From a virus: a stretch of 64,000 nucleotides of DNA. Made by a program: the position numbers and the translations under genes. Numbering within the stretch: position 1 is the stretch's first letter; each line of letters opens with the position of its first letter. A model generated the notes under the pieces. That model was given only the letters and a program-made list of their open reading frames with translations. It was not told where the DNA came from and made no database searches. Positions 29,574 to 62,603 of the stretch are shown here, piece by piece. The DNA lies in the IMG/VR virus record IMGVR_UViG_3300045738_001212, positions 93,998-157,997 of that record. The stretch is one strand, 5' to 3'.

Positions 29574-32131
29574 ATTTTAAGTCTCACTTTAAAGGCATTG
29601 ATCTACCTATTCATGGGGTTCGTTTACCTCGGTTCGAGATAGAGAAGAAGTTCAAAAGAGAGCTCGGGGTAAGTGAAGATATTAGTAACTATGACTTCTT
29701 ACGTTCATTAGCTAACGCTGGATTTAAAAATTTAAAAATAAATAAAAAAAGTAAGAAATACAAACTCTATGCCGAAAGAGCGAAGCACGAAATAGACACC
29801 CTAGAAGACTTGGGATTTGTTGACTATGTGCTTTTAGTTTGGGACGTAATTAACTACTGCAAGCGTAGTGATATACCGACAGGTCTCGGGCGGGGCAGTG
29901 CTGCTGGAAGCCTTATCCTTTATTTAATTGGAGTGACCAAGGTTGACCCAATTGAGTACGGCCTTTATTTCGAGAGATTTATTTCAAAAATTAGAGCGAA
30001 GAAGCAGGTCGTTGACGGCATCACTTATCTTGATGGTTCGCTAATGTGTGATGTCGATTTAGACATTTGTTATTACAATCGTGGTAAGGTTATCGATTAC
30101 CTTGAAGAAAAGTTTAAAGGGAGGACTTCTAAAATTATAACCTTCAACACCCTTAGTGGGAAGCTGTGCATGAAGGAATGCGGGAAGATTGTAGGGGGGA
30201 AGACCGAACAAGAAATGAGCCTTGTGTCTTCAATGATACCTAAAGTCTTTGGTAAGGTGAAAGACATAGAAGAAGCGAACGAAGAAGTTCCCGAGTTTAA
30301 AGAGTGGTGCGACAAAAACAGGCGGGCCTACAAGATAGCCTTGAACCTTAGAGGCTTAATCAAAAACAAAGGAGTTCACCCATCGGCCCTTTCCTTATCG
30401 TATGAAGACATGGAGGACAGTTGTCCCACAGAATTTTCATCAGACAAAGCTTCCATCTCGTCTTTCGACATGAACTGGACCTCGATTTCCAATGTTAAGC
30501 TAGACTTGCTGGGACTAAGGTCCGTATCGGTAATCGATGACGTTTGCAAAAGTGTTAAAATTAAAATAGAAGACATTAATCCTAACAGCAAATTTATATA
30601 CAGGCACCTTCAAGATTTAAGAACGCCTCATGGCTTATTTCAAATTGAAGCCGATACAAACTATGGGGTTTGTAGGAAGGTGATGCCCAAGAATCTTGAA
30701 GAACTAAGCGCGGTACTAGCCCTTGCTCGTCCCGGAGCATTAGCTTTCGTTAACCAATACGCAAACTACTCAAACAACGGGGTGAAAGAATCCATACACC
30801 CATTCTTTGATGACATTTTGGCGTCAACTGGTGGTGTTTGTTTATATCAAGAGCAGATGATGCAAATGGCTCACAAGGTTGGGTTCACGCTTGACGAAGC
30901 TGAAATTCTACGTCGTATCGTGGGCAAAAAGAAAGTTACTGAGGTACGCAAGTGGAAGAAGAAAATTAAAAACAAAATCACAGAGAAGAAGCTCGATTCT
31001 GAGATCGGTAAAATCCTCTGGAAAATCCTTGAGGATTCAGCCAACTACTCTTTCAATAAGTCCCATTCTATTTCATACGCCGCGCTTGCCGCGACGACGA
31101 TTTATCTTAAGTTCAAATACCCTATGGAATTTTTCTTAAGCCTGTTGCGTATGACCAGACACGAACCAGACCCGATTAACGAAATTTCCAAAATCCAGAA
31201 AGAGATGCACAACTTTAATATAAAGTTACTGCCTCCTCATATCACAAAATCACGGATGGATTTTATGTCTGAAGGCGAAGATATTCGATTCGGACTACTC
31301 TCGATTAAGGGAATTTCAGATAAGTCTATAGAAAAACTAAACAGGTTTAAAAGAGACACCTCCACAAAGTTCGAGGTATTCGAGGCGGCAAACGAAGCCA
31401 ACCTAACGATTGGTATACTGTGTGCGCTTATTCAAGCGGGGGCTTTTCAGGGGTTTGTGCAATCCAGAACCAAGATAGCATACGAAGCTCAACTTTGGAA
31501 TGTCCTTACCCAAAAAGAAAAGAAGCTCTGCATAAGCCTATCTAAAGAACACAGGCACGATCTGGTTGCCGTTCTTAAAGACATCTTAGGCAAGAAAAAC
31601 GAAAAAGGGAAACCCCTTATTAAGCCTTCTCGTTTTGAGACTATCCAAAGAAAATCTCAACCTTACAAGGAAATTTTTAACAAGAACAGGTACTCTGAAA
31701 GCTTTGCGAATTGGTACTACGAAAATCATTTACTAGGATACACCTACGGAAAGACCCTCAAGGATATTTTCGCTAAAGAAAGACCCAACTTGCTTTCCCT
31801 TAGCTCAGTCAACGCCAGAACTAAGGGGGCAGAGGTAGAGTTTATTGCTCCCGTTGGGAGTAAGCCAGCCACGCGCATGTCTAGAAACGGCAACCGTTAT
31901 CTTGTCATGGAAGTCCAAGACGAAACAGATAGAACGAAGGTAATGATATTCGGTGACAGACTGGATGGGTGCGAAGAAACGAACGGAGGTCTTCCTCAAG
32001 AAAAGAACATTGTGATAGTCACGGGGCAGAAACAAGATGACAACACGGTCTTTGCCAACTCCATCACTATCCAGACAAATAAAATTTACACCCGCTATTC
32101 TGAAATAGAATCAGAAAGAAAACTTAAGTAG
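29555..32131 (+). CDS. dnaE: DNA polymerase III alpha catalytic core lacking PHP
   Basis: GRGSAAGS, FERF, DVDLD, KLDLLGL, YQEQ, YSFNKSHS, IRFGLLSIKGI, C-terminal OB fold. Confidence 0.93.
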   Translation: MADRNINFKSHFKGIDLPIHGVRLPRFEIEKKFKRELGVSEDISNYDFLRSLANAGFKNLKINKKSKKYKLYAERAKHEIDTLEDLGFVDYVLLVWDVINYCKRSDIPTGLGRGSAAGSLILYLIGVTKVDPIEYGLYFERFISKIRAKKQVVDGITYLDGSLMCDVDLDICYYNRGKVIDYLEEKFKGRTSKIITFNTLSGKLCMKECGKIVGGKTEQEMSLVSSMIPKVFGKVKDIEEANEEVPEFKEWCDKNRRAYKIALNLRGLIKNKGVHPSALSLSYEDMEDSCPTEFSSDKASISSFDMNWTSISNVKLDLLGLRSVSVIDDVCKSVKIKIEDINPNSKFIYRHLQDLRTPHGLFQIEADTNYGVCRKVMPKNLEELSAVLALARPGALAFVNQYANYSNNGVKESIHPFFDDILASTGGVCLYQEQMMQMAHKVGFTLDEAEILRRIVGKKKVTEVRKWKKKIKNKITEKKLDSEIGKILWKILEDSANYSFNKSHSISYAALAATTIYLKFKYPMEFFLSLLRMTRHEPDPINEISKIQKEMHNFNIKLLPPHITKSRMDFMSEGEDIRFGLLSIKGISDKSIEKLNRFKRDTSTKFEVFEAANEANLTIGILCALIQAGAFQGFVQSRTKIAYEAQLWNVLTQKEKKLCISLSKEHRHDLVAVLKDILGKKNEKGKPLIKPSRFETIQRKSQPYKEIFNKNRYSESFANWYYENHLLGYTYGKTLKDIFAKERPNLLSLSSVNARTKGAEVEFIAPVGSKPATRMSRNGNRYLVMEVQDETDRTKVMIFGDRLDGCEETNGGLPQEKNIVIVTGQKQDDNTVFANSITIQTNKIYTRYSEIESERKLK

Positions 32132-35100
32132 ACGAGCCGATAGGAACCGACCCCCCCGCTTCGTCAGGCGGTCTTAGAATCGTCTTTTCGGCTGACACGA
32201 TTCCTTGTTCAATGTCATTGACGGTTGTTCCTTTCGGGACCACATATCCTCCTCCGGGGAAAAAGTTATGTCCGACTTCGCCTCTTCGCATCCACTCTCT
32301 ATTTATTGTGGGGTCGGTAACTACGCCATCGTAAAACATCCAATGCTGGGTTACCACGTAGTGTCTTTGCGTGAAGATACTAGTGTCGTCGTTAGCCGTG
32401 GGTTGTCCAGCGGCAGCAGAACAAAGTAAAGCACTGACCGGATAAGTTTGAGAGTCGCTAGTCGGCAAACTTTCCCAAGATAATAAGTGGCCATTAAAAT
32501 GATGAAGATCGCTTATGGTTGGCCACAAATATCTATTGTAATAATAGGGAGCCCCCCTATATAAGTCATGATAGTTATGCATCCCGCTACCCATCGTTAC
32601 CAATTCATTAGCTCTTACCTGCATCCTTGAAGGAGCAAAGAGGATGTCTTTCGTTACGGGGGCAAAGTCTGGATTAAACAGGCCGAATTGGGCTTCGTAT
32701 GCATCACCAGTCGGGAATGTAACCCCATCTCTCTTGATTACTTCTGAGGCGTAGTGAGGGTAGTCCAAGTCATTTAGGTCAGGGTCTTCTGATACGTCTT
32801 CCATCACGATACCCTCGGTATATATCGAAGCCTCCTGTTGATGTTGGTATTGCAGGTATCCCGAGACTTGACACGCTCCGCTTTGTTCCATTGCGAAATA
32901 AGAATCTACAGGCATTCTTCCAAGTCCATCTATTTTTATGTCTGTGATTAGAATTTTTATTCTTGATGTCTCTTTCCATCCCGATACGGGTATTAAAAGA
33001 CTAGCGTCCGTTGGGTCTGGCGTCGTAGGCGTTGGAGCGCAAAGGCTTATCTCAACCCCTTGGAAACTTGCGTTAGGCTGTCCGGTCTCGGCGGAACCAT
33101 GCACACCACATGTCCAAGATACCCCATTGGGCAGATGATTCGAGCCATCACCGGGGCACGGCCATTGGAGGGTGGCATTATCCACGGCGAGTGCCCAACA
33201 TGATGCTTTCGAGTAATCGTAATGATTAGGGATATCATCCTTATTTCCAATCAACCAGTGCGTATTGCCACCGGGCACATCTGTACGTCCGAACATACTG
33301 ACTCCATTTTCTGAGTCCACCATGTCCCACTCTGTCTGTGAATAATTGAGGTAATCATAAGCGAGTCTCCAGTATCCATTAAGCGATTCATCTTCAAAGC
33401 CAACAGACTTCAAACATCCAGCGCAACTTCCGGGTATGAATTCAGGAGTGGTAGAAGTAGTGGTAGTAGGGGGGGTGGGATCGACAGTGGTTCCCACCGC
33501 TCCTCCGACAGCTATCCTTGCTCCGTGTTCGAGTAGTGTTTCCCACCGAGTCCCGCCAGCATGAGATTTATAGGCCCACGGTTGGGTTGGTTTTTCAAAC
33601 ACGATACCATCTGCGATGGGGAACGCCCCCTCGAAAGAAAGTGTTTTTTCGTCTATCCATGATTCCTTAAACAACTCGATAGGCTTATTGTTTGGGTTTC
33701 CGTATACCGCCTCTACTCCCTCTGGCAACTCCTCCATCCCTACGCGAGCAATTTGGTCTGTTCCAGTCAAGTAACACAAGACTACCTGCTTGGCCCAGCC
33801 CATTCCTGCCAACGAACCACCACCCCCGTCATACATGGACATCTCACCTATCGTCCCCACTCCGGTTGGATCATAGACTCTCCCCTCTGTGTCCTCTGAT
33901 ACGTAGTCGGGTGCCCTAATGTGTATATCGACTTCAGTTGGTCGAATATTAAATAAGTATACCCTTGATTCCGCTTCTCTTAGGGTAGGATATTCGTCGA
34001 AGTAAGGGCTTGTAGAAAAATCCATAGGGCATCTAAGATAGTCATCCATGCCGTAGTGTCCCGCCTCGCCCTCGCAATTAATTGTTGCGCTCTCGTCGTT
34101 TGGACAACACAACCCCGGAGAATCGTCAATTGGGCTTTTGCTGTAAGGGTGAATCCATTCGTGACCATCTCTTTCGCAATATTCCTGCGAACCTGTCCAA
34201 TAATGCCCGTGCCAAGTGCAATCACCTGCTTCTGTGTAATAGGGGGATGAGCATCTCCCCATCCGGGCTTCCCAAACCTTATCATGGTAGTCGCAATCTT
34301 CCTTGGTTAAGTATTGCTCGTCCGAGCATACCCAGATTTCATAAAGCTCCCTGTTCTCATCGCAAAAATATCCAGCATCATTGCCTGTTGCCGGGAGCCC
34401 TTCCAGATCAATTAAAGAATCGAAGTTGCCAGCGTAACCATTCGCGCCATAAAGACACCCAGACCTTAACCCCACCCAATGATCACCATATATTTTTTCT
34501 GGATGGACCAGCGGCCCTTCGATGACCTTACACGCTTCACTTTGTATCGCGGGCTGTTGCCCGTCCATGACGTAAGCATCTGCACATTTCTCGTAGTTCT
34601 CGTGGTAGGTTCCTGTCACATGAGAAGAACTACTCATTGGCCACCAGTGGACAGGATCAAACGACATAGACTCTGGCCCATAGTCTACTCTATCCATGTT
34701 TTGGCTAAATGTCCCCCCTCCTCCCTGATCGTAGCTACATAGAAAATACGCTTGGTTCCCGTAAGAGAAAGCGGTGTTGAATTCCTCGAAATCTTGCAAT
34801 AAATTTTCTAACCTGTAGGAAGGCTTGGCGTACCTAGTTTTTACCGGGAAATCGTATTTTGAATAGCGACGGTATCCACCATAAGTTACTGAAGCTTTTA
34901 CCTCGTAATAGTCATCTTCTAGGTCATTGTCGTAGTGGCTTTCTTCCGTCTGGTATTTGTAATATTGCGCCCTTGCAAATTTGTTTCCCCCATCAATGAC
35001 CACTTGGGTTGGCTTGGTTTCGATATAGCTCGGTTGCCATATGTAATTAGCGTCTTCGCATGTATATCGGGTGACGTAATCATGCATTGGGTTCGCGTCT

Positions 35101-38100
35101 TGGTCACCGCATCCAGTTATAGAATAATATGTCTCAGTGGTGAAATCATTTATGTTTCTTCCTGACGCTAGATCAACATCTATGGTTATAACTTGGTCAG
35201 CAGCCGGATCAGGACCGAAGCTACTCAATACGGCTTCTTCTGTAACGTAATCAACATTGACTAAGCCAGACCAATTATAGTCTTCGTTAACACTCTTAAA
35301 CTCCGGCAAAGTCGAGCCTTCTTTGGTGAGCTTTTTGGTCCAAGATACATTTCCGTATGTGTCAACAAACCCTCCAGAAACGAAATCTTTCATTGCCCAC
35401 TCTTCAACTTCCACGTTAAATGATACATGCCAGAGGAACCCACTGATTTCTTTGTCCTCCTCTTCTTCTGGATAGGTTGTCGCGTGAGCCCCAGAAGCGT
35501 TTGGATATAAAAAAGTATAATGAGTGCTTGCGTATGGTCCCCTCCAATATCTTGGGGGGTTTTCTGTTCTTTGTTTCCCCTCTAACTCAAGCCACCCCCG
35601 TTCCTCTGGCCATATTCCAGTGTCCCACGCTATGTCCCTGTGATAATGGTAATCGCAGTCATAAACCTCACAATATGCCCACCAGCTTGAGCATTGCTCC
35701 CAATTACATGCTCCGGGAGATGAGCTATTATAGCCCCCATACTGTGTTGCTTCCGATCCATCTGGACAGGGTAACGGGATAGCGTTTTCGCCACACTCTT
35801 CCATCTCAGGAGGTATTGGCGTGGTAGTGGTGGGTTCATTTGCGGGATCGTATGAGGTCGTCGTTCCGTAAGGGTCAGCCGAGGTAGTAGTCCCTTGGTA
35901 ATTCGGATTGTCGGGATTTAGGGGGTCGCAATCGTCAGGGTTAGAAACATTAGCGCAAGGATCGAGAGTCGTAGTCGTGCAAAGTTTGTCGTATGGTGGC
36001 CCCCCATCCCAGTTTCCGGGAGGTGGGCCGTGGAACGGTGGGGTAAATCCGACATCACAACACTTACTTATGTGTGGATAGTCGGCAAGGAAACCCGCCG
36101 TATTTGTCATGCAGTCTAGTCCTACGTAAGGAAAATCTTCATGGACATCTCCTTCTCCGCTTCCTATCCAGTAATACGTGACCTGACTATCTAGATAATG
36201 CTTACACTCGTTATTCCATTGGTGACCAGTGTGTACGTGCATACAAGAAACCGACTCTCCCGCCGCGTCTCCCGTTATCTGCATCCACCCCGATACAAAG
36301 GTGTGCCAATAGTCGCCTCCCCACTCACCTATGATCGTATTCTGCCACAGTCCTTCCGCTCCCGTTACTTCTGTGTATCCGCTAAGGAACAGTATTGCGC
36401 TTTCGTTATTGGCGATCTCAGGGTTGGTAATGTTTTTATAGTCAACGGTGTGGAACTGATAAGGAAACGTTGCGTTGTCCCGGAACTCTTTGGTAACTGG
36501 TATGTCCTGACAGTTGTCTCCCATTCCGAAGAATTTCTGTGGAGTGATTATCTCTTGGCCCATAGAAAACGGATCAGGAGGCAGGGGGTCTGGTGGGGAA
36601 AAATGTTGAGAGTAGCTTCCCATGTACGACTGATATGTCTGTGGAAATACGGAAGCACCTTGACAGCCAGTGAATCTATACGGATAATTTCTTTGGTTTT
36701 CTTCGTTAAAGTTATTGCTTATTTTCTTTCCTTCGAATTTTACGGTTGGACATTTTTCCCAAAAGGCTGTCTCGGGATCACAAAACGATGTTTGATATTC
36801 CACGTCTATGAGAGGGAGATTCCAACCACCTGTCCTATGAAAATAAAAAGACCCGTAGGGGTCTTGTGCCCATCTATACATCCACCCCGGAAAGAGGTTG
36901 ATGGATGCCTTTTGCATTTTTGTTTTATTCTCTATGTATACTTGGGCGTACACAAATGGGCCACCAGCAAAATCGCTATACGACAACCTGTCAGTATGCG
37001 ATATGTATCTGCTATAGAAAGGTTGAGGAGGTCCACATGTGCCAGCGACAACCCCCGCCGTAGCTGGCCCATAATGGAAAGCTCTTCTTCCTAGATTCTT
37101 GAGGTCACCTATCGGATTAGTGTAATGCTGAAGGTATGATCCACTTAGCCTTTCCTCAGTGAACCCTAGTGGACACAGAACAAATCCTGTCCATTTAATT
37201 ATGTTGCTGTTTTGCCAATAAGTTTGCGAGGTGCCCATATCCTTATTGATATGGTGGTGCCTGAAACTCATGCTTTCGACTGCATTATAATCGTCGTAGA
37301 TGCCCATCCCGACCATATCGTTACTTCCCGGAAAAGGAGACGGCCCCGGCGAGAGAGGGTTTTCGCAACTCTCTCTCCACACTCCAGCTTCGGCCCAATC
37401 GTGGTCAGATGAAAATTCTTCAGTTGTCCAATACTCTTCAGCGTCTGCCCATGTAGAGCCAGCAGCTTCACAAGTTTCTTTGGTTGTATATTGGCCCTCC
37501 CAACAATAATGAGCAGCTTCACAAGCCTCTTTGGTTACGTGTTGGGAGTCCGAGCAGTAACCAGCAGCTTCACAGCCAGCCTTATTGTTATCAAACGCAG
37601 AGTCCGTGCAAGTACCTACATCCTCGCAAGTTTCTCTGGTCGTGTATTGGGTATCTGAACACCGAGCAGTCTCACATTCAGTCTTGGTGGCCGTATACTC
37701 CCCTTGACATCCGTTTAAAGTAAAGCAACTCTTCGGTACAGTCCATTCACCCCCGATAGCGTCGCATTCTCCTGTGGTGTTGTAGTCAGGCCAAAGATAA
37801 CCTATTTTCCACGATCCACCATTGTTTACGCAATCCTCTTTGTTATTGTCTACGGAACCGAGACAAAAACCATCCTCGTGATGGCACAATGTCCTAACAA
37901 GCTCAGGGCATCCTCCGTACCAACGAGACCCGTGGACCTCGTGCGCGTGTACAAATGCATATGGTTCGTAAACTGAAGAGTCCGAAACGTCATGATACCA
38001 CGAAGGATAAGAATAATAATCAGTAAGCCATCTTCCGTCTATGCCCGTGTAGGTTTTTAGGGATTCATACGTATCTCCGAGGTAGTCAGCAGAGGCTGGA

Positions 38101-39158
38101 TAATTCCATATTGTTTTATCTGTAATATATTTTGTAGCTCCTTCGTCGTAAGTACCAGACACGGGAGGAGACTCTACAAACTTCCTTTCAAATGAAGTCC
38201 CGGTTATGGGAGCAATGGTGTAGGCTTCATCAAGGCACGGGAATTTAATTGGTCCTATGTTATCATACCCCGTTACTACTCCTTGTGGATTTGTTTTTGA
38301 AATTATCTTGTCTTCGCACGGGGGGGTGTACCACCACCAAGTTGGGTCGTATAATATTTCTCCCTTAATTGAGTAGGTAGCAAGCTCGGCGTCTTTCATG
38401 AGTTGGGGGTCGATAGGCTCCCCAAAAATTTTTGTTACGTCTTCGTAGCCGAACATGACAGCCGGAGTCGGTATTGTGGCCTCAGAAGTAATTGAAATCT
38501 CTTGAAACATTGGCGTCCAGTTGGTCGTCAATATCCTCTTAAAAACATCAGAAGATATATGCACTGGCGACATCGGAGACGCTGCTGCCCCATATTCCGT
38601 GTAATACGTATGAAGAAAAGCGGAAATTTTAGCGTAGACATGAAGGTGAATCATGTTGTTGTTCACCCCCTGTGAAGCCATCGACCCCAAACACGAAACG
38701 ATAGCTACTGAAAAATCTTCCCGAGCCTGAGTGGTTCCCCCCGACATTCTGGAAAGAACAAATTCCCTATGCGCCCCGAAGACCGAACCTTCATTAAACC
38801 CCTTGGATTGAGTTAACGCATTCCATTGCTCGTCTTTTTTTGTTACTTTCTCAAGATTTCTCAAGGGAGAGTTTGGCGACATATCTTCTACGATACTGAA
38901 ATAAGCAGCCTGAAGAACCCGAGTTATCCGGTCAAGAATCTCATGCTTACTCTTGTGACCAGCGTATGTGGATGCGTAATAGCAGACAATTAACGAGCTC
39001 GCTTTGCCCAAGGCTTGGCTCATTGCTTCTAGGTCAGGATTTCCAACTCCTTTTGCTCTATCTCCATATCCTTGTCTCCTCAAGGTAGCATATTCGTTAC
39101 TTTGCTCACTTTTACTGAGCCAAGAACTCATTTTCAGGGTTGGATCATAGCTTCCCAT
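32124..39158 (-). CDS. giant Cys-rich probable virion/fibre protein with nested C-C-W modules
   Basis: 2344 aa; about 11 C-x9/10-C...W modules; Thr/Pro-rich linkers; many S/T-G. Confidence 0.75.
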   Translation of the reverse strand: MGSYDPTLKMSSWLSKSEQSNEYATLRRQGYGDRAKGVGNPDLEAMSQALGKASSLIVCYYASTYAGHKSKHEILDRITRVLQAAYFSIVEDMSPNSPLRNLEKVTKKDEQWNALTQSKGFNEGSVFGAHREFVLSRMSGGTTQAREDFSVAIVSCLGSMASQGVNNNMIHLHVYAKISAFLHTYYTEYGAAASPMSPVHISSDVFKRILTTNWTPMFQEISITSEATIPTPAVMFGYEDVTKIFGEPIDPQLMKDAELATYSIKGEILYDPTWWWYTPPCEDKIISKTNPQGVVTGYDNIGPIKFPCLDEAYTIAPITGTSFERKFVESPPVSGTYDEGATKYITDKTIWNYPASADYLGDTYESLKTYTGIDGRWLTDYYSYPSWYHDVSDSSVYEPYAFVHAHEVHGSRWYGGCPELVRTLCHHEDGFCLGSVDNNKEDCVNNGGSWKIGYLWPDYNTTGECDAIGGEWTVPKSCFTLNGCQGEYTATKTECETARCSDTQYTTRETCEDVGTCTDSAFDNNKAGCEAAGYCSDSQHVTKEACEAAHYCWEGQYTTKETCEAAGSTWADAEEYWTTEEFSSDHDWAEAGVWRESCENPLSPGPSPFPGSNDMVGMGIYDDYNAVESMSFRHHHINKDMGTSQTYWQNSNIIKWTGFVLCPLGFTEERLSGSYLQHYTNPIGDLKNLGRRAFHYGPATAGVVAGTCGPPQPFYSRYISHTDRLSYSDFAGGPFVYAQVYIENKTKMQKASINLFPGWMYRWAQDPYGSFYFHRTGGWNLPLIDVEYQTSFCDPETAFWEKCPTVKFEGKKISNNFNEENQRNYPYRFTGCQGASVFPQTYQSYMGSYSQHFSPPDPLPPDPFSMGQEIITPQKFFGMGDNCQDIPVTKEFRDNATFPYQFHTVDYKNITNPEIANNESAILFLSGYTEVTGAEGLWQNTIIGEWGGDYWHTFVSGWMQITGDAAGESVSCMHVHTGHQWNNECKHYLDSQVTYYWIGSGEGDVHEDFPYVGLDCMTNTAGFLADYPHISKCCDVGFTPPFHGPPPGNWDGGPPYDKLCTTTTLDPCANVSNPDDCDPLNPDNPNYQGTTTSADPYGTTTSYDPANEPTTTTPIPPEMEECGENAIPLPCPDGSEATQYGGYNSSSPGACNWEQCSSWWAYCEVYDCDYHYHRDIAWDTGIWPEERGWLELEGKQRTENPPRYWRGPYASTHYTFLYPNASGAHATTYPEEEEDKEISGFLWHVSFNVEVEEWAMKDFVSGGFVDTYGNVSWTKKLTKEGSTLPEFKSVNEDYNWSGLVNVDYVTEEAVLSSFGPDPAADQVITIDVDLASGRNINDFTTETYYSITGCGDQDANPMHDYVTRYTCEDANYIWQPSYIETKPTQVVIDGGNKFARAQYYKYQTEESHYDNDLEDDYYEVKASVTYGGYRRYSKYDFPVKTRYAKPSYRLENLLQDFEEFNTAFSYGNQAYFLCSYDQGGGGTFSQNMDRVDYGPESMSFDPVHWWPMSSSSHVTGTYHENYEKCADAYVMDGQQPAIQSEACKVIEGPLVHPEKIYGDHWVGLRSGCLYGANGYAGNFDSLIDLEGLPATGNDAGYFCDENRELYEIWVCSDEQYLTKEDCDYHDKVWEARMGRCSSPYYTEAGDCTWHGHYWTGSQEYCERDGHEWIHPYSKSPIDDSPGLCCPNDESATINCEGEAGHYGMDDYLRCPMDFSTSPYFDEYPTLREAESRVYLFNIRPTEVDIHIRAPDYVSEDTEGRVYDPTGVGTIGEMSMYDGGGGSLAGMGWAKQVVLCYLTGTDQIARVGMEELPEGVEAVYGNPNNKPIELFKESWIDEKTLSFEGAFPIADGIVFEKPTQPWAYKSHAGGTRWETLLEHGARIAVGGAVGTTVDPTPPTTTTSTTPEFIPGSCAGCLKSVGFEDESLNGYWRLAYDYLNYSQTEWDMVDSENGVSMFGRTDVPGGNTHWLIGNKDDIPNHYDYSKASCWALAVDNATLQWPCPGDGSNHLPNGVSWTCGVHGSAETGQPNASFQGVEISLCAPTPTTPDPTDASLLIPVSGWKETSRIKILITDIKIDGLGRMPVDSYFAMEQSGACQVSGYLQYQHQQEASIYTEGIVMEDVSEDPDLNDLDYPHYASEVIKRDGVTFPTGDAYEAQFGLFNPDFAPVTKDILFAPSRMQVRANELVTMGSGMHNYHDLYRGAPYYYNRYLWPTISDLHHFNGHLLSWESLPTSDSQTYPVSALLCSAAAGQPTANDDTSIFTQRHYVVTQHWMFYDGVVTDPTINREWMRRGEVGHNFFPGGGYVVPKGTTVNDIEQGIVSAEKTILRPPDEAGGSVPIGSST
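37377..37712 (-). repeat. five-deep nested C-C-W module array
   Basis: Opener units with about 51-nt period (agcagcttcaca at 37461, 37512, 37563), then five short aromatic closers. Confidence 0.75.
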
Positions 39159-54337: not shown

Positions 54338-57300
54338 CTAAAGCATCCTTGGCCCGATTTTGTTTAGAATGCTTTCCTGTTGTGGAGCTTGCGCTGGCCT
54401 ATCGGCAAAGGTCAAAGAAGTTTCAACTCCTCCGTCAGAAAGCGAAACGTTTATACTTGTTAGCCCATTCCTCGGTTCACATACCTGTTTGAAAAAAGGA
54501 AAATCTAATAGAGACCCGGCTAATTTTAAATCTACTTTTTGATTTGGCTTAAGAACACTATAATTATTCAATCCACCACCTATATTCGGCCTTTGTTTGG
54601 CGTCGCCATAGGCAATTACATTATGGTATTGTTCTATAGTTTGTATCGCGTCACCGTCTTGATCGTACATTTTTGTTACGAAACCCCTTCCGTCTGGGTC
54701 TAGCATGGCTCCCATGTCAGGATCAATTGTATTATTTATTACCTTTATTCCTGCGGTAGCGTTTTCATTCGCGGGTGGCTCTCCATAAATTTCCATTAAT
54801 TCCGGCATTCGATCTTCAATCGTCACGTTAGCGTTCCAAATCCCGCTATATAATTGGAATGCCCTCGAACTCGAAGGCAGTCGTACACCTAAGTTATCAA
54901 CCAACTTAAAGTTGTTCATTGGGTAAACGATGTTTTTTACGAAACTTTTTCTCGGCAAGTATTCCAAGTCTTCTTCCAAGTCCATCAAGTGATAGTGCCC
55001 CAAGTCGGAGGTGGGAACATAGCCTTCTTGATCTGGATTTCTGACAACAGTTAGTCTCAGTACTCTGGAATTTTCCATCCCATTCCACGGGGCACCATTG
55101 GGCATTATGTACCCACCAATCAACGCCTTATCAAATCCTTCCTTATAATTACCTGTTGGGTCAACAGCGCATGAATTTACGTCCATATTTCCCCATCCGC
55201 CTCGCTGAAAGCTTGCTGGATCAGTTCTTCCTCTGTGCTTTATGGCTTCTTCACAGAATTCATACAGGATATCTCTATCACACTTGTTCCTTATGTCGGC
55301 AACCTGCCTTCTCTTGCGCTCCGCTAACTCCCACAGTTCTCTTTGCTTTCTTGCTTCTGTGTTGACTACGCCTCGGCCAAGATATTTGGCGTCAAAGTAA
55401 ATGTTGGGATGAGTTTTCACGTTTGGGATAACCATCAGCGTAACCTTTTTACAGGCATTTCTAAACTGATAGTCAATGTCCCAACTGCTAACGCTTACTT
55501 CATCCACGAGCTTGCCATCATTATACAAATTTTGTAATAGGTCTGAACAAGCGTCTAGCATTTGCTCTGTGTCATCGAAAAATTTAGGAGCGAACATCCC
55601 GATATCCCAGCTTTGTTTTTTCTCTGGCCAAGGCCGATTTACTATTTCTTCAAATCCTCCAGCTTGAATTGTATTTAATGAGTCGTTGAATTGCTGACAC
55701 GCATTATCGTTAAAAGCCCTACTCCATTCTTTATCAAAGTTATCCTTGGTGTAGCCCCAAGGGTTGTCCAGTGTGCAAAAGTACAGGCCCGTAGGCATGA
55801 AGTTACCTGAGTTAACTAGTACTCCATTGTACGGGGCGGTAAATGCTGCCGCGCTGTAGGTGGGCTGTTGGCCATGTTCTAAACTTAATATTGGATATTG
55901 CTGTGCATCGGGCTCAAAAGTGCTGTTCAACTTGGGGATGGATAGCCCCTTATCCCCCGGTTGCAAACCAGCACCCCCATCAGTGACCCCGAAGTAGTCC
56001 CTTGGGACAAATGGATAAGCAGGGAGTGTCCCTCCGACGATAGCTCCAAATTTGTACATTCCTTCAGCGCATCTCTGTTCCCACGCCACATATTCATCGT
56101 GAAGAGCTTTGTCATAGTATCCCACGAAGATTTTATAGTCAGCCGCGTCCATGCTAATGTCTTCGATTTCCTGCTTGTTGAGAAAAATTTCTAAAACATT
56201 TTGTTTTACCATGACGTTTTCTACTTCTGAAATCCGCTGGAAGCCTAACGCTTCCATTTGGGCGGTAAGCTCTTTTTTTTCGTATGCGTTTGGACGCCCC
56301 GGAAAGTTCTTTCTTTTGGTTGATGTGGGTACCGCAGGAACAGCTTCTAATTGGGCTTGAGTAGCTAAAGTGTTTGATGCTCCCCCGCCAGCAGCTTGCG
56401 TATATAGCCTAGTATCGCCTTCTTGAGCGTGACCCACGGGGTAAGTGTCAACGGGGCATAAAGTACTTAAAGCGTACTCTGATAAACGTGACCCTACGTA
56501 TATGTCCCTTAATTCCCTGCTGTAACGAGACAATGCTATTGATACGTCCATGTCCCATAGCTGTCTATTGGTTCTGTGGTCCAAGCGTAGTCTTCCGTCG
56601 TGGGTCGATGCGTCTCCCAATTCCTGTGTGGGAAGAAAACGTGGGTTTTCCCAAGGAAAAGAGTTCGCTAATTGTATATATTTAAAGTCTTCCCCCAACA
56701 AGCTAGTGTAATTAGTTTCGGTTTTGTTCGGCATACTGAAGTCCAACGGGTGAAGCGGTAGTACTGGGACGTATCTTGTAATTGTCTTTTTTCGTTCTTT
56801 CACCATGAACGGTTTGATATTTGAAGTTATACAGCTTTGGACGAACGTGTTTTCTAGGGTAGAAGATTCCTTATAGGATATAATGGCTGAAGTTCCTGCT
56901 GCTGTTGCTCCAAATTCCATTCCCATAGGAGTGGAAGGATCAACTATGTTTCGGATGGGAGCTACATCTGCCCCCCGTTGCAAGTCGAGGAAATAAAAAC
57001 CCTGAAAACTATTAGCTCCAACCGGAGGGAACAGGGGATTTGTGTTATCCCTGTAGTAATAGTCCAAGGCAAATACCCCGCACCACTGTTCTAATACTTC
57101 CCTGAGTGTACCAATATAATTCGCCCTGTATCTTGGGTTTTTGTCCGGGCTTCTAGGGACTCCATTTGGGTAGGTGATATTTCCGAATTTCAAACCTCTA
57201 AGCTTTAAGCTGTCCAAAAGCTCGGTGAAATTATAACTTACATTAGGTGCCTCTCCGCACGGCTTTTCTTGGAACTCTTCTGTCCCGATTATTAAATAAC

Positions 57301-58348
57301 CACCGTCCATAGTAAAACCTACTGGCTCTACCATTCCCGCAGAGACTCTAGCATGTAACAAACCCCAATATTCTTTCGGATTGAAACGAACATAGGGTCT
57401 CCACTTTGTGCCTCGCACTCGCAATGGGTGGACATCACCGTGGTAACCAATCCAGTGACAAGCAGCCGCATTGCCTCCGTAGCAAGCTGAATCTTTTATA
57501 TTATAAATGTTTGTCACGTCGTACACTGGACCGACTAGGTTGGTCCCATAACGAGGGTTACCACCGAAGCCCGGTCTTCCAATGAAAGAAGCAAGGGCGC
57601 AATCTCTTTTAATCATTCCCTTCTCCTTATTGAAGAATCCGGGGCGGCCTACTCTTCCAAATAAATTCGCGCCAAACCAACTCTTGTTTGCTGGATTGGA
57701 AAATCCTTCCCCCTCCAGATAACAATTCGGACACATTGCCTCAAGCTCCACCATTGCGTGTGAGTCTTTCCCGAATGCTGTACGATACACATTTTGCCTC
57801 GGGTCAACTGCTTGCTCCCATCTCATACGCTGTGGGCCTTGTTTTTTAGCTAATCCAACGTAAATTTTATCCAATATTACTGAGTAGTCTTTGAACGTAA
57901 CATGTAATACTTTTTGATTTGGCTCTATGCTAATGTTGTAATCGAACAGATACATTCTGGCGAACACTAAGCCGTGGATATAAATGGTATAGAAATTTCC
58001 GAGCACTGTTTCCTGAAGGAAATTCGCAGCCGTTGCTCCTGTTCTCGGGTGTGTAGAGGTCAAGCTGACCCCTAATATGTTATCATTTATGTCAAATTGG
58101 GGGACTTGAAAGATCGTCATCTTGTGATCTGCTCGTCGAGGGGCAACTTTTTCTTCCTCTAACACCATACTCATGGTGATTTGAGTAGGGGACTTAGAGA
58201 AGCCCAAGTCAACTGAAGCGTTATATATCCACCCTCCGAAAGCGAACCCCTTGGGCCATAACCACGGATTTTTTCTAAATAATCCAGAATTCTTAAGGTT
58301 TACGCTCGGGATTACCTCTACTGCCTGTAAATTTTGTACGAATGCCAT
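54338..58348 (-). CDS. large probable tail/baseplate hub-like protein
   Basis: 1336 aa; beta-rich N-terminus, GTLREVLEQWC segment, C-terminal SINVSLSDGGVETSLTF; position in the structural operon. Confidence 0.55.
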   Translation of the reverse strand: MAFVQNLQAVEVIPSVNLKNSGLFRKNPWLWPKGFAFGGWIYNASVDLGFSKSPTQITMSMVLEEEKVAPRRADHKMTIFQVPQFDINDNILGVSLTSTHPRTGATAANFLQETVLGNFYTIYIHGLVFARMYLFDYNISIEPNQKVLHVTFKDYSVILDKIYVGLAKKQGPQRMRWEQAVDPRQNVYRTAFGKDSHAMVELEAMCPNCYLEGEGFSNPANKSWFGANLFGRVGRPGFFNKEKGMIKRDCALASFIGRPGFGGNPRYGTNLVGPVYDVTNIYNIKDSACYGGNAAACHWIGYHGDVHPLRVRGTKWRPYVRFNPKEYWGLLHARVSAGMVEPVGFTMDGGYLIIGTEEFQEKPCGEAPNVSYNFTELLDSLKLRGLKFGNITYPNGVPRSPDKNPRYRANYIGTLREVLEQWCGVFALDYYYRDNTNPLFPPVGANSFQGFYFLDLQRGADVAPIRNIVDPSTPMGMEFGATAAGTSAIISYKESSTLENTFVQSCITSNIKPFMVKERKKTITRYVPVLPLHPLDFSMPNKTETNYTSLLGEDFKYIQLANSFPWENPRFLPTQELGDASTHDGRLRLDHRTNRQLWDMDVSIALSRYSRELRDIYVGSRLSEYALSTLCPVDTYPVGHAQEGDTRLYTQAAGGGASNTLATQAQLEAVPAVPTSTKRKNFPGRPNAYEKKELTAQMEALGFQRISEVENVMVKQNVLEIFLNKQEIEDISMDAADYKIFVGYYDKALHDEYVAWEQRCAEGMYKFGAIVGGTLPAYPFVPRDYFGVTDGGAGLQPGDKGLSIPKLNSTFEPDAQQYPILSLEHGQQPTYSAAAFTAPYNGVLVNSGNFMPTGLYFCTLDNPWGYTKDNFDKEWSRAFNDNACQQFNDSLNTIQAGGFEEIVNRPWPEKKQSWDIGMFAPKFFDDTEQMLDACSDLLQNLYNDGKLVDEVSVSSWDIDYQFRNACKKVTLMVIPNVKTHPNIYFDAKYLGRGVVNTEARKQRELWELAERKRRQVADIRNKCDRDILYEFCEEAIKHRGRTDPASFQRGGWGNMDVNSCAVDPTGNYKEGFDKALIGGYIMPNGAPWNGMENSRVLRLTVVRNPDQEGYVPTSDLGHYHLMDLEEDLEYLPRKSFVKNIVYPMNNFKLVDNLGVRLPSSSRAFQLYSGIWNANVTIEDRMPELMEIYGEPPANENATAGIKVINNTIDPDMGAMLDPDGRGFVTKMYDQDGDAIQTIEQYHNVIAYGDAKQRPNIGGGLNNYSVLKPNQKVDLKLAGSLLDFPFFKQVCEPRNGLTSINVSLSDGGVETSLTFADRPAQAPQQESILNKIGPRML

Positions 58349-58353
58349 AATTT

Positions 58354-60723
58354 TTATCCTAAATCTACTAAGTCCTCATCATTATTATAAAAATAAAAGA
58401 GGTTTTCGTCAAAGAAAGTGAATGATTTTGTCATGCTGCACTCCCTCCCTCTTCTATAATCTGTATGCCTTTCCTGCCTTACCCCGTTAACCCAAATCAT
58501 TTCGGAGAACCCAGAAATTGGGTTTGGTATGCCGTCAATTGGAGCCCAAGCCCCACCTGCGGCTTCGCAAATGGTTTCGGTTGCATACGTGTCAGTCCAA
58601 GCGTTGGTAACTGTCCAAGTGTTGGTGGGTGTCCAAGTCTCGGATGCTCCTTCGCAAGTTGCTTTCGTAGCATATTGAGTATTAGAGCAAAGCCCATCAT
58701 ACTCCAAACAGGTTACCTCTGTGGAATACACAGCGTTACTACAAGTTCCATCGTTTAAGCAGGTCGCTTCAGTTATGTGCTGAGAATCACTACAGGAAGG
58801 GGCAACGGTACAAATTCGTATAGACTCTTTGATTATCGAAGGCTTTTCTCCCGTAACCATTGGCGCGAAACATAATTCCGGGGTATAAACTTCTTCTGCT
58901 AGGCGTGGGTAGCTTGGCCCCGCTTGGAGCCCCGGCAATCCCCCCAAGATAGTCAAACTTGGGACGTTAACGGGCAAGTCCCACTCTTGGAAATTAGCAT
59001 TGTTTGAACTATTCCCGGTTCTATAAAAGCCAGTTGAGTAATCGATATCCTCGATTAGCTTCTGGCCGTTATAATAGACGTGCTTATCGTGCACGTATTG
59101 ACCGGAAACCCCCGTGATAATCACGTTACAAGAGTTGCCTGTTTGTATAAACTGGGCGTGTGCTGGCCAATATCCACCGTTTCCAGTAACAAATCGGTGG
59201 GATACTAAACACCCGCTAAAATCTACACATATGGAGGTGTCTTCAAGAATATCATAAATTAGATTATGCTCTCCCGCCTCATACCCAACTAAAGACCTGT
59301 CGTCGAATATCTCATAATCGTAATAGTGTCCCCCTTCTTGTCCATCAGCCATGACAGCGGTGGAATCATCTCCAGAAGTCAAAAGAGTCGGATCATTTAT
59401 AGATTGCTGGAACAAACCACAATGGTACAGCCTGATAGCGTCCCCAGTAACCTTGTCCTCTATGGGGTGAAGCTGGGTATCCGTTCTCGGGTTGTCAAAA
59501 ACAGATATTTCTAAGTGTTCTCCGGCTGCTAATTTATTTTTAAAATTTAAAAAATATCTGTTATAGAGACCTAATTTCTCGTGATCATATATCACCCCTG
59601 TGACATCCTCGCTTAACGAAGTGGTGTTGATGTCTCCTGTTAAAAATGTTGTTAACGTCCCCGACTCTATCAACCCTGTTACTCCCGAAGAAAAAGCAGT
59701 AAGGACAGTCGATCCGTCCAAGTCGGTCACGTATTTGTTTCTTATTTCATACCCAGTGATTCCAGTGGTATAAATTATGACCTCTTCAAAACCCGTGATA
59801 GTCGGAGAAAGTATCTCTGACGAGACATTGGTTACGTTTGTGCCACTTGCGAACATGCACTTGCATTGGTCATCAGCAGTGGTTCCCCCAATAGCGGTAT
59901 TGTACAAGGCGAAGTTGCGTATATAACCTTGGTACCCAGTGTAGTAAATATTACCTTCGACATCATTACCGTGGTATGGACTTCCGTCAGGGTATACTGC
60001 TTTTTCAGGGAAACTTCCAAGATATATCTTATCGGAATCAAAAATGTGTTGAGAAATCAAACTTACAAAATCCGAAGCTTCTGTTTCCATGTCGTAAAGA
60101 CCAATGGAGACCTGATTTAAGTCCTTTAGTACGCTTACTATTGAATGGGTACCTATTTCCCTATTTAGGGTTTGGCCGACGGGAATACCATTATCGTTGT
60201 ATTGAATATACAGCCTATTTGATTGGTTGATTCCTACAAAAAAACCAGAAGTGGAATCATAGGCATTCATCGAAGAAAGAAGGACTCGCGAAAGATTGTC
60301 CTCGTCTGAATAATTACACAGAGATGGGTTGATATCTATTATTGCAGTCCACCCCGCGAAGGGGACACTTATGCCCACCCTTACCCAGTCTTCCTTGGTA
60401 AAAAGACCAAAATCTGTAACAGGTTTGTCTGTTTTTCCGATAGAAAACCCCGGCAAAAGATCAGCGTTAACTACCTGTGCATATGTCCAAGCGTTTGCTG
60501 AAGCGTCACATTCCGTTTTTGTGTCGTACTGAGGGTCAGAACAGGTGCCCGCGAAATCTTCAACACCTACCACGAAGTGGTCTCCAGTCGGATAATTAAG
60601 GTTAAATATGTAGTCCCCTACCGGATTATCCTGAGTTCCACTGTCGAAATCATAAAAGACTTTAAGTTCTCCCGTTTCCAAGGAACTAGCTGTTAAGCAG
60701 TCTATGTAATTTCCATATTTCAT
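58354..60723 (-). CDS. probable virion protein with a LamG/ConA-like domain and nested C-C-W modules
   Basis: 789 aa; VFYDF...GFFVGINQSNRLYIQY...IYLG...GYIRNFALYN; GTGTAA at 60741-60746 upstream. Confidence 0.7.
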   Translation of the reverse strand: MKYGNYIDCLTASSLETGELKVFYDFDSGTQDNPVGDYIFNLNYPTGDHFVVGVEDFAGTCSDPQYDTKTECDASANAWTYAQVVNADLLPGFSIGKTDKPVTDFGLFTKEDWVRVGISVPFAGWTAIIDINPSLCNYSDEDNLSRVLLSSMNAYDSTSGFFVGINQSNRLYIQYNDNGIPVGQTLNREIGTHSIVSVLKDLNQVSIGLYDMETEASDFVSLISQHIFDSDKIYLGSFPEKAVYPDGSPYHGNDVEGNIYYTGYQGYIRNFALYNTAIGGTTADDQCKCMFASGTNVTNVSSEILSPTITGFEEVIIYTTGITGYEIRNKYVTDLDGSTVLTAFSSGVTGLIESGTLTTFLTGDINTTSLSEDVTGVIYDHEKLGLYNRYFLNFKNKLAAGEHLEISVFDNPRTDTQLHPIEDKVTGDAIRLYHCGLFQQSINDPTLLTSGDDSTAVMADGQEGGHYYDYEIFDDRSLVGYEAGEHNLIYDILEDTSICVDFSGCLVSHRFVTGNGGYWPAHAQFIQTGNSCNVIITGVSGQYVHDKHVYYNGQKLIEDIDYSTGFYRTGNSSNNANFQEWDLPVNVPSLTILGGLPGLQAGPSYPRLAEEVYTPELCFAPMVTGEKPSIIKESIRICTVAPSCSDSQHITEATCLNDGTCSNAVYSTEVTCLEYDGLCSNTQYATKATCEGASETWTPTNTWTVTNAWTDTYATETICEAAGGAWAPIDGIPNPISGFSEMIWVNGVRQERHTDYRRGRECSMTKSFTFFDENLFYFYNNDEDLVDLG
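58546..58815 (-). repeat. nested C-C-W module array (3 openers, 3 closers, inside an outer module)
   Basis: 18-nt-period closers (gtccaag at 58595, 58613, 58631) adjacent to three opener units. Confidence 0.75.
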
Positions 60724-60746: not shown

Positions 60747-62603
60747 CTAGAAACCCCACTTATACCCCGGAGGTCTTATATATTGCATATTCAACGCGGA
60801 GAATAAGACCCGCGCCTGATTTAAAACCTCCATATGTTTTATGGTTGGATTATGTAAAAAACTAGATGACAAAGTGTACATATAAGGAAACTGGACATCA
60901 TCCGTACTGTCTTGTTCAAAGCGCGAAATGATTGGGAACATACCCCCGATAAGGGGGTACTTGGTTATGTCTATAGGAGCGGTAGCGAGTTCAACAGCCT
61001 GTCGAAAAATTATTAGTTGTTCGTGAGCCATTTGGTCTGCCGTTCTGCCCAAAGGCCATCCCCCAGCGGGCGGGTAAGATTTGCCATTCCAGTTTGCCGA
61101 GGAGTAGACGAGTCTTCCGTGAGCCGCTTGTCCATCTACATTTATCTTAGTATTCGTTTGAGAAATACTGTTGAGATTTTGTAATACATATACTCCATCC
61201 ACGTTTGCCGAGGCCATTTCTTTGTAGGTGTCCTTTGAGCTTGTCACGCTTACGTTATATTTTGCGTCAGCAACCACATCCAAATAATCTTCATCTGAAT
61301 AAGTGGCGTTCATACTTAACGAACCTTTGAGTTGATCCTCGTTCCATTTTATCGTCGTTGGGAACGGGTCTAATGCCCTGCTGTTGCCAAGGATACGGTA
61401 AACTTCGCTAGACGTGACTTTTTGGTATAGGTAAGCTTCTAAGTTGCTGTAAATTGTGGACGCTCCGTAAGCTAAATCTTTGAAATTTTTAATAGCTACG
61501 TTTTTATTTGGAATAGTTCCATAAGCGATTAACTTAGCGTCAATGGCATAAGTTGCGACCTCTGTCACGTCATCTCTATTAAACGAAATAGTATAATCAA
61601 ATACACCCTTGGTGAGGTCTGTAATTCCATACTGGAATGCTCCCTTAATGTTTATTTTGTTCGCCGCTGGCTCTTCGTTAATCGAGAAACTAACTTGATG
61701 GACTTGGCCGACAGGAACACCCAACAAACCAGCTACTTCATTATGGTACTCCTTTGTGTCTACGGCGTTATTGATTATGGTCCTTAAAGACGCCATCCCG
61801 TTAGCGTCATCGGTTGTGTATTGTGCCTCGTAATCTACAGTTTTGTATTCTTCTGCGATGCTTTCGTTGTGGGTAAATTTAGATTTTTTCAGGTAAGGCA
61901 ACCCAGCACCGCCGCCGAGACCATCGGGGTGATTTACGGTATATTTATATTTTTCCGTGACAGAGTAGGAACCCTCAAGCCTGTTAATGTTTTCCGACCT
62001 GTCGATTAGTACAGGTGTTCGATTTGCTATGAAAGATGGATCACATGTTCCGAAGTGGCTAACTCCGACGTATTTATCTACAAAAGTTATTGCCCTCTGC
62101 AACGGGGAAACGGTTCCATTTTTAATTCCCTTGGCTGAAACTTTGTGTACAACGTCAACCGATCCATCCTCGTTTTCTGTGAAATTGTATGAGTCGGTTG
62201 GGTCTAACACCGAGTCTGCACTAAAAATATCATAAGCTTTTAGCTTAACTGTGTATCTAATTTGGGATTTAGGTGACCACTTATCTTTCGGAAAGTCTAT
62301 TGAGTCCACCACCACGGATGGGAATTTATAATATTCAATCGCGCCCTCCATCACCTTCAATTCTGCAAAATTGTTCTTAAATGTCTCGGCAAACTCTATG
62401 CCCAAGTCCCTAGTAGTTCCACCTACGGGAGCTTCAAGCTGGGCGATAACGCCATTTAAAGTAATAGTTTCGGTCATGCCCCACCTATCACCATAATCTA
62501 TGGGATCAAGGCTTCTTGAGACAAAAGGGTCACCCTCTACTATAATGCCATCATAGTATACTCTAGCCGTCGTTACTCCGGGTAATGTATTAGCTAAACT
62601 CAT
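60747..62603 (-). CDS. probable virion structural protein
   Basis: 618 aa beta-rich ORF in the structural operon. Confidence 0.6.
   Translation of the reverse strand: MSLANTLPGVTTARVYYDGIIVEGDPFVSRSLDPIDYGDRWGMTETITLNGVIAQLEAPVGGTTRDLGIEFAETFKNNFAELKVMEGAIEYYKFPSVVVDSIDFPKDKWSPKSQIRYTVKLKAYDIFSADSVLDPTDSYNFTENEDGSVDVVHKVSAKGIKNGTVSPLQRAITFVDKYVGVSHFGTCDPSFIANRTPVLIDRSENINRLEGSYSVTEKYKYTVNHPDGLGGGAGLPYLKKSKFTHNESIAEEYKTVDYEAQYTTDDANGMASLRTIINNAVDTKEYHNEVAGLLGVPVGQVHQVSFSINEEPAANKINIKGAFQYGITDLTKGVFDYTISFNRDDVTEVATYAIDAKLIAYGTIPNKNVAIKNFKDLAYGASTIYSNLEAYLYQKVTSSEVYRILGNSRALDPFPTTIKWNEDQLKGSLSMNATYSDEDYLDVVADAKYNVSVTSSKDTYKEMASANVDGVYVLQNLNSISQTNTKINVDGQAAHGRLVYSSANWNGKSYPPAGGWPLGRTADQMAHEQLIIFRQAVELATAPIDITKYPLIGGMFPIISRFEQDSTDDVQFPYMYTLSSSFLHNPTIKHMEVLNQARVLFSALNMQYIRPPGYKWGF

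What the first reader, a model, noticed from the sequence alone, without database searches (positions are those of the whole stretch)
58546..58815. Second, independent nested array in another virion gene, using two insertion points
Seen: ICTVAPS[CSDSQHITEATCLND[GTCSNAVYSTEVTCLEYD[GLCSNTQYATKATCEGASETW]TPTNTW]TVTNAW]TDTYATETICEAAGGAW. Three openers match three closers (18-nt DNA period), and the whole stack sits in the first loop of an outer module (ICT...DTYATETICEAAGGAW). Inference: a matched count in a different gene argues against coincidence and shows the module tolerates self-insertion in both loops.
Basis: partly seen in the sequence, partly recalled or inferred. Interest (0 to 1): 0.8.

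Follow-up and report, generated by a model that had tools for sequence, protein, structure and literature searches.

The report
Nested Cys-Cys-Trp micro-domain array
A loop of a phage tail-region protein carries a tiny 20-residue cysteine/tryptophan module nested inside copies of itself like Russian dolls, and the same undescribed module, nested up to about ten deep, turns up in many bacterial surface proteins and once in the solved T4 baseplate protein gp8.

Summary
Residues 637-726 of the 789-aa ORF 58354..60723(-) read: half module, three C-x10-C openers, three W-ended closers, second half module.

It is not chance. The strict opener pattern occurs 4 times, against 0.003 expected in shuffles.

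At this site orthologues carry 3/3, 3/3, 2/2 (four proteins) or nothing (seven). Four orthologues carry arrays in another loop: three 2/2 (one of them twice) and one 1/1.

Across 87 non-redundant arrays from about 120 proteins, Cys-pair and Trp counts correlate (Spearman 0.88).

AlphaFold2 on the array alone gives pLDDT 88. It predicts one helix per opener, a short strand before each first Cys and one at each Trp. This fits a two-limbed nested ladder, but strand partners and disulfides could not be read.

The module matches no Pfam, PHROG or NCBIfam model and no PDB fold. A module HMM finds exactly one copy in each of two T4-like phage genomes, in gp8 (solved as 1N7Z).

The same module occurs in T9SS cargo, TadG/VWA pilus proteins and pilins.

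Close homologues differ by single whole-module indels. Growth from 2/2 to 3/3 appears as paired indels.

Function is inferred: a length-tunable rigid projection.

Verdict: a real, undescribed module family with an unusual nested architecture. The scan noted a sister array in this window (37377-37712).

The parts
58354..60723 (-). Host gene: 789-aa protein (P0001) of the tail/baseplate-region gene block, with no known family
   Evidence: The frame is open and there are 18 homologues at 25-71% identity. It has no Pfam, PHROG or NCBIfam hit. The gene block continues across the record ends to a tail-fibre gene.
58795..58812 (-). Outer module, first half: C638 plus 5 residues. The nested stack is inserted in its loop 1.
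   Evidence: The Cys is invariant in all array-bearing homologues (A3/A4). The model has a strand at 636-638.
58744..58794 (-). Opener 1 (aa 644-660): C-x10-C plus a 5-residue link, with no Trp of its own
   Evidence: HMM match to model positions 2-16 only. Helix at aa 652-657 in the model.
58690..58743 (-). Opener 2 (aa 661-678)
   Evidence: HMM positions 1-15. Strand at aa 659-661 and helix at aa 669-674.
58633..58689 (-). Innermost complete module (aa 679-697): opener 3 plus its own Trp at the canonical C12+7 spacing
   Evidence: Full-length HMM match 1-23, E 9.6e-12. Strand, helix and strand at aa 677-679, 687-692 and 697-699.
58597..58632 (-). Two 6-aa closers (TPTNTW, TVTNAW), an 18-nt period, assigned to openers 2 and 1
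   Evidence: They share 14 of 18 nt. Strands at each W. One closer is absent in the 2/2 orthologues.
58546..58596 (-). Outer module, second half (aa 710-726): Y-x-T-x3-C-x6-W
   Evidence: HMM positions 7-23. Helix at aa 716-721 and strand at aa 726-728.
60487..60549 (-). Single complete module near the N-terminus (aa 59-79)
   Evidence: It is present only in P0001 and P0002, as one clean whole-module indel against 12 orthologues.

Best explanation
The region encodes a nested array of a roughly 20-residue micro-domain.

Module consensus: G-x-C-S-D-x-x-Y-T-T-x-x-x-C-E-x-A-G-x-T-W-T. It reads as a short strand, a loop, a short helix ending at the second Cys, a turn, and a Trp strand that returns beside the first strand.

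Because the two ends of a module meet, a whole module can sit inside a loop of another. Two loops are used:
- loop 2, between the Gly turn and the T-W;
- loop 1, between the first Cys and the aromatic residue.

In P0001 an outer module is split in loop 1. It holds a three-level stack built through loop 2.

The chain therefore goes out along four disulfide-stapled units and comes back along four Trp-bearing strands, one per level. The result is a rod-like hairpin ladder projecting from a surface loop of the host protein.

What is shown:
- the sequence anatomy;
- the matched counts within and between families;
- whole-module indels;
- the predicted secondary structure.

What is inferred:
- the C1-C12 disulfides;
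- one-to-one Trp packing in nested order;
- the role, a rigid projection on an extracellular or virion surface whose length is set by the number of levels.
For: Anatomy and HMM parse.

Orthologue counts. 3/3, 2/2 and 0/0 at this site; 2/2 (twice in P0010), 1/1, 2/2 and 2/2 at another loop. Paired gaps appear in BLASTP.

Other arrays in this genome are 2/2.

Cross-family statistics. 189 arrays collapse to 87 clusters. Cys pairs against Trp give Spearman 0.88 (p 6e-29). Counts are exactly equal in 46%, against 13% in permutations (maximum 28% in 5000), and within one in 79%.

TadG/VWA proteins with 4 to 9 openers carry mostly n or n+1 Trp (n+2 in one and at most n+2 in another). The last Trp is a conserved host-domain residue.

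Mixed strings such as O(OW)(O(OW)W)(OW)W are balanced.

Spacing. The innermost unit keeps the single-module C12-to-W spacing of 7 in 188 of 237 cases. Outer openers have 5 residues to the next Cys in 122 of 161.

AlphaFold2 of aa 632-732 with 15 sequences: mean pLDDT 88.2, four strands just before first cysteines, four helices, four strands at the Trp residues.

Arrays are always loop insertions. Orthologues without the array join the flanks directly. In TadG proteins the array splits a VWA domain.

Whole-module contiguous indels occur at 74% and 60% identity.
Against: No coordinates were available, so strand partners, disulfide geometry and Trp contacts are not verified.

Only two of the five AlphaFold2 models are confident (88, 81, 65, 63, 61). 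The longer construct modelled poorly (mean 48.9).

Counts are exactly equal in only 46% of arrays with my crude parser. Some closers use F instead of W. P0073 (9 openers, 3 Trp) does not fit; it is a partial record.

Phage virion proteins fold in the reducing cytoplasm, so disulfides may form late or not at all.

The mirror-versus-parallel similarity test was only weakly in favour of nested register.

No function was tested.
Confidence: 0.75

Rival explanations
1. Two unrelated tandem repeats lie side by side: a 17-18-aa Cys repeat and a 5-6-aa Trp repeat. They fold separately, and the equal counts here are coincidence or loose length matching, not one-to-one pairing.
For: Adjacent closers are the most similar units (14 of 18 nt). 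Long TadG arrays have near-identical neighbouring units, as tandem duplication would give. A third of arrays are off by one.
Against: Counts track each other from 1 to 12 across 87 clusters and in every orthologue of this gene. The innermost pair always has the spacing of a free-standing module. Single modules contain both parts. Balanced mixed strings and whole-module indels inside closers are not expected from two separate repeats.
Confidence: 0.1
2. The nested structure is right, but arrays do not grow by self-insertion. They grow by separate duplication of one opener and, later, one closer. Selection for a matched ladder restores the balance.
For: The 3/3 and 2/2 orthologues differ by two separate gaps. 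Openers 1 and 2 share the outer-type signature. Neighbouring units are most alike in long arrays. Many arrays are off by one, as intermediates would be.
Against: A single contiguous deletion of the innermost module also turns 3/3 into a valid 2/2, and at 42-50% identity the alignment cannot tell the two apart. Close homologues do show single whole-module indels, and so does the N-terminal module.
Confidence: 0.45
3. The cysteines bind metal instead of forming disulfides. C12 of one opener and C1 of the next (C-x5-C) would build Zn or Fe sites, and the array would be a metal-stabilised or redox element.
For: Virion proteins are made in the reducing cytoplasm. The C-x5-C spacing between neighbouring openers is very regular (122 of 161).
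Against: Free-standing modules have only two Cys and no His. The module is common in secreted proteins, namely T9SS cargo, pilins and TadG, where disulfides are usual.
Confidence: 0.05

Closest known systems
Loop 138-165 of bacteriophage T4 baseplate wedge protein gp8 (PDB 1N7Z; also 9F4A)
   Same: It belongs to the same sequence module. The A3 array profile hits it in the PDB (E 0.084). The module HMM A6, built without any gp8, finds exactly one hit in each of two whole T4-like genomes, and both are in gp8 (E 1.2e-3 and 9e-9). G, C, S, T, K, C, G-G and W are invariant across three divergent gp8 sequences. Like P0001, gp8 is a tail-region virion protein.
   Different: It is a single copy, never nested, with Leu or Ile at the aromatic position. 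P0001 is not a gp8 homologue (no PF09215 hit). To my knowledge the gp8 loop has not been described as a module family. I could not inspect its coordinates.
Nested sandwich-barrel hybrid motif (SBHM) domains in the Si3 insertion of cyanobacterial RNA polymerase
   Same: One domain type is repeated non-tandemly. The chain folds back on itself and four SBHMs are built from distant segments, giving an elongated projection inserted in a host loop (PMC10895346).
   Different: It is unrelated in sequence and fold. SBHM is a beta domain of about 80 residues with no Cys/Trp signature, and it is cytoplasmic. Here the unit is about 20 residues, depth reaches 9-12, and depth varies between close relatives.
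Thrombospondin type-1 repeat (Trp ladder with disulfides)
   Same: Both are small extracellular disulfide-stabilised elements in which regularly spaced Trp on one strand pack against a partner strand. This rests on my own knowledge, plus PMC9198472 as listed.
   Different: The TSR is a fixed three-strand unit of about 60 residues with six Cys and Trp-Arg layers, used in plain tandem. P0001 has no Pfam TSP_1 hit.
Antiparallel coiled-coil arms (SMC, Rad50)
   Same: The rod is made of an outgoing and a returning limb, so length changes need matched indels in two distant segments (my own knowledge).
   Different: In those arms both limbs are alpha-helical heptads. Here the limbs are unequal, at 17-18 aa against 5-6 aa per level.

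Membership tests
   Openers 1-3 and the N-terminal module fit the pattern.
   This holds for the innermost module, the outer second half and the N-terminal module. The spacing is 7 in 188 of 237 family modules.
   Structure prediction returns no coordinates. Only the pattern of strands and helices is available.
Nested (balanced) array of that module | The number of Cys pairs equals the number of closing Trp, and this is kept in orthologues | tested here: met
   P0001 has 4 pairs and 4 Trp. Orthologues are 3/3, 2/2, 0/0 and 1/1. Family-wide Spearman is 0.88.
Pfam Phage-Gp8 (PF09215) | Match of the whole protein to the gp8 profile | tested here: not met
   P0001 has no Pfam family at E up to 1.
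Thrombospondin type-1 repeat (Pfam TSP_1) | Six-Cys unit of about 60 aa with a W-x-x-W ladder and a profile match | tested here: not met
   There is no Pfam hit. The Trp spacing is 6 and there are two Cys per unit.
Phage tail or baseplate structural protein | Homology to a known tail protein, or location in the tail gene block | tested here: inconclusive
   There is no PHROG, Pfam or PDB homology for P0001 or its five neighbours. The co-oriented block wraps the record ends to a 1301-aa ORF with tail-fibre PHROG hits at E 1e-60.

The most novel reading that the evidence does not exclude
This would be a new class of protein repeat. The module is self-nesting and its arrays follow a bracket (Dyck-type) grammar instead of simple tandem repetition. 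Depth would evolve freely from 1 to about 12 by whole-module insertion or paired duplication. Phages and bacteria would use it as a general way to build disulfide-stapled rods of adjustable length on virions, pili and secreted proteins.
Probability: 0.5. Interest if true: 0.85.

Novelty: new variant of a known kind. Interest (0 to 1): 0.78.

Why it matters
Known repeat proteins are built from tandem units. Here two different units, about 17 aa and about 6 aa, occur in mirrored equal numbers. Depth differs between orthologues (0, 1, 2, 3) and reaches 9-12 in pilus-associated proteins.

Why this would matter if the nested ladder is real:
- It adds an architecture to the catalogue of repeat folds.
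- It gives a natural example of recursive domain insertion at the 20-residue scale.
- It explains a conserved loop of the long-solved T4 gp8.
- It defines a family absent from Pfam, PHROGs and NCBIfam that annotates parts of many large unassigned phage tail and bacterial surface proteins.
- It offers a simple design rule for rods of set length.

It is directly testable by one crystal or NMR structure and a disulfide map.

Tried and rejected
Family libraries. Pfam, PHROGs and NCBIfam gave nothing for P0001 or for array-rich proteins over the array.

Database searches.
- tblastn of P0001 against 50,697 phage records found no match.
- The PDB profile of the whole protein gave only meaningless haemagglutinin rows at E above 0.1.
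- ESM Atlas feature search gave no usable hit.

Structure.
- The first AlphaFold2 run, on aa 545-789, was too poor overall (mean pLDDT 48.9) and its Foldseek search was empty.
- For the good model, Foldseek against the PDB found nothing and VIA-align against 48,161 chains found no Z of 2 or more. This does not prove a new fold.

Literature. Searches for nested or recursive insertion, and for TadG cysteine repeats, found no description of this module.

Other tests.
- Chance is rejected.
- Recent slippage is rejected, because units are only 45-53% identical in DNA.
- Bracket-order test: 42 of 53 balanced arrays are well-formed, against 26 expected. This is modest, and parser errors explain several failures.
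- Mirror-versus-parallel unit similarity was 0.28 against 0.05. This is suggestive only, and the TadG arrays are not independent.

Full report
**1. The observation**

The minus-strand ORF 58354..60723 is open and encodes 789 aa, stored as P0001.

Residues 637-726 map exactly to 58546..58815. They read as follows:
- a lone Cys followed by five residues;
- three C-x10-C units, each with Ser at +1, an aromatic at +5 and Thr at +7;
- the third unit ends in its own Trp seven positions after its second Cys;
- two six-residue units ending in Trp;
- a segment Y-x-T-x3-C-x6-W.

The strict opener pattern occurs four times in the protein. The mean in 20,000 shuffles is 0.003.

The units are old. Openers share 45-53% of nucleotides and the two 18-nt closers share 14 of 18.

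**2. Context**

The window belongs to a 158-kb virus record that is 91% complete by CheckV. It encodes RNR, DnaB, a split Pol III alpha, UvsX and sugar enzymes.

P0001 and its five neighbours have no Pfam, PHROG or PDB relatives.

The co-oriented gene block runs off the end of the record and resumes at its start. There a 1301-aa ORF has strong tail-fibre PHROG hits and lies next to three further module-bearing ORFs.

"Virion gene" is therefore a reasonable inference from context. It is not shown.

**3. The module**

The same 20-residue pattern occurs as free-standing copies in seven large minus-strand ORFs of this genome. A module HMM gives 25 matches there.

From about 240 complete modules plus 161 Trp-less openers the consensus is G-x-C-S-D-x-x-Y-T-T-x-x-x-C-E-x-A-G-x-T-W-T. 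Spacings are regular:
- second Cys to Trp is 7 in 188 of 237 cases;
- an opener without a Trp has five residues to the next first Cys in 122 of 161 cases;
- successive closing Trp are 5-7 residues apart.

An outer opener therefore looks like a complete module cut after its Gly turn. The next module sits in the cut. The T-W reappears after a three-residue link.

The HMM was built from 84 complete modules (three of them the complete modules of P0001 and two of its orthologues; none from the outer openers or the split half). It parses P0001 in just this way: full match for the innermost unit, positions 1-15 and 2-16 for the two outer openers, and positions 7-23 for the outer second half.

**4.

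Eighteen homologues were found.

At this site:
- P0002 has three openers and three closers.
- P0003, P0004, P0005 and P0007 have two and two.
- Seven others lack the whole insert, outer module included. Their flanks are joined directly.

MAFFT and BLASTP independently place one opener-sized gap and one six-residue gap.

In a different loop, arrays occur in four orthologues:
- P0010 carries two arrays of 2/2.
- P0012 carries 1/1.
- P0014 and P0015 carry 2/2.

The N-terminal single module is present only in P0001 and P0002, as one clean indel.

Two arrays elsewhere in this genome are also 2/2.

No orthologue has unmatched counts.

**5. Beyond this phage**

A search of 1.8 billion representatives and a profile search found about 110 further proteins. 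They include:
- T9SS cargo of the FCB group. These carry the same 93-residue cassette, an outer module holding three openers and three closers.
- TadG/VWA pilus proteins, where the array sits inside a split VWA domain.
- Pilins.
- Laminin_G_3, PKD and PA14 proteins.

Reduced to tokens, the arrays read like bracket strings. Examples are five openers then five Trp, four then four, and mixed forms such as O(OW)(O(OW)W)(OW)W.

Over 87 non-redundant arrays:
- Cys pairs and Trp correlate with Spearman 0.88.
- They are equal in 46%, against 13% in permutations.
- They are within one in 79%.

In TadG proteins with 4 to 9 openers the Trp count is mostly n or n+1 (n+2 in one and at most n+2 in another). 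The last Trp is a conserved residue of the host domain.

Exceptions exist. Some closers use F instead of W, and one partial record has 9 openers and 3 Trp.

**6. Structure**

The 245-residue construct modelled poorly.

The array alone, aligned with 14 same-architecture sequences, gave mean pLDDT 88.2 and pTM 0.58. Two of the five models are confident.

DSSP shows, in order along the chain:
- a strand at the outer first Cys, then three times a strand just before a first Cys followed by a helix that ends around the second Cys (openers 1-3);
- three strands at the Trp residues of the closers;
- then the outer helix and a last strand at the outer Trp.

Four outgoing and four returning strands are what a nested ladder predicts. 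Strand partners were not returned, so the register is inferred.

No solved structure resembles the model. The nearest Atlas models are TadG, VWA, gp8 and phage clusters.

**7. A solved copy**

The array profile hits T4 gp8 residues 138-165 in the PDB at E 0.084.

The module HMM contains no gp8 sequence. It finds exactly one match in the whole genome of a T4-like phage and one in a Vibrio phage. Both lie in gp8, at E 1.2e-3 and 9e-9.

The key residues are invariant across three divergent gp8 sequences. The segment is kept in 1468 phage records.

A single module therefore already sits in a crystal structure, apparently unremarked.

**8. How arrays change**

Two proteins 74% identical differ by one 21-residue gap. 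That gap is exactly one complete module lying inside a closer of a three-level nest.

Two others, 60% identical, differ by one 23-residue module.

Whole-module insertion or loss inside nests is therefore real.

The 2/2 to 3/3 difference in this gene aligns as two gaps. A single deletion of the innermost module would also give a valid 2/2, so the route is open.

**9. Comparison and verdict**

Same-domain nesting has a precedent in the SBHM domains of cyanobacterial RNA polymerase Si3 (PMC10895346). I therefore rate this a new variant of a known kind.

The module itself, its depth and its variability appear undescribed.

Function as a rigid projection of adjustable length is inference only.

Noticed in passing
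window 37377-37712 (ORF 32124..39158, minus strand): This is the sister array noted earlier by the scan. It has five openers followed by W- or F-ended closers. The module HMM hits several units there (genome 131443-131658).
   Followed up: partly
P0024, P0033, P0034, P0045, P0047, P0060, P0070 (T9SS cargo of FCB-group bacteria): They carry a 93-residue cassette with exactly the same layout as P0001 and 30-38% identity to it: an outer module split in loop 1, holding three openers and three closers. This suggests either transfer of the whole cassette or a hint to the host phylum.
   Followed up: partly
P0090, P0115, P0082 and other TadG/VWA proteins: Arrays of 4 to 9 levels are inserted inside the VWA domain. 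VWA profile positions 1-51 lie before the array and positions 44-171 after it.
   Followed up: partly
L008:2646-6551 (genome 2646..6551, minus strand): A 1301-aa collagen-like tail-fibre protein with PHROG hits at E 1e-60. The tail gene block seems to wrap around the ends of the linear record.
   Followed up: partly
L001:1-6146: The closest relative phage contig carries an ORF of at least 5505 aa upstream of the same gene order (655, 618, 790 and 1337 aa).
   Followed up: no
P0010 residues 533-641: This orthologue has two nearly identical 2/2 arrays about 15 residues apart in another loop. A complete nest, possibly with the strand between the two copies, has been duplicated as a unit.
   Followed up: no
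window 54338-58348, 60747-62603, 62600-63802, 50837-52060: Four neighbouring large ORFs of 1336, 618, 400 and 407 aa have no Pfam or PHROG family at all.
   Followed up: partly
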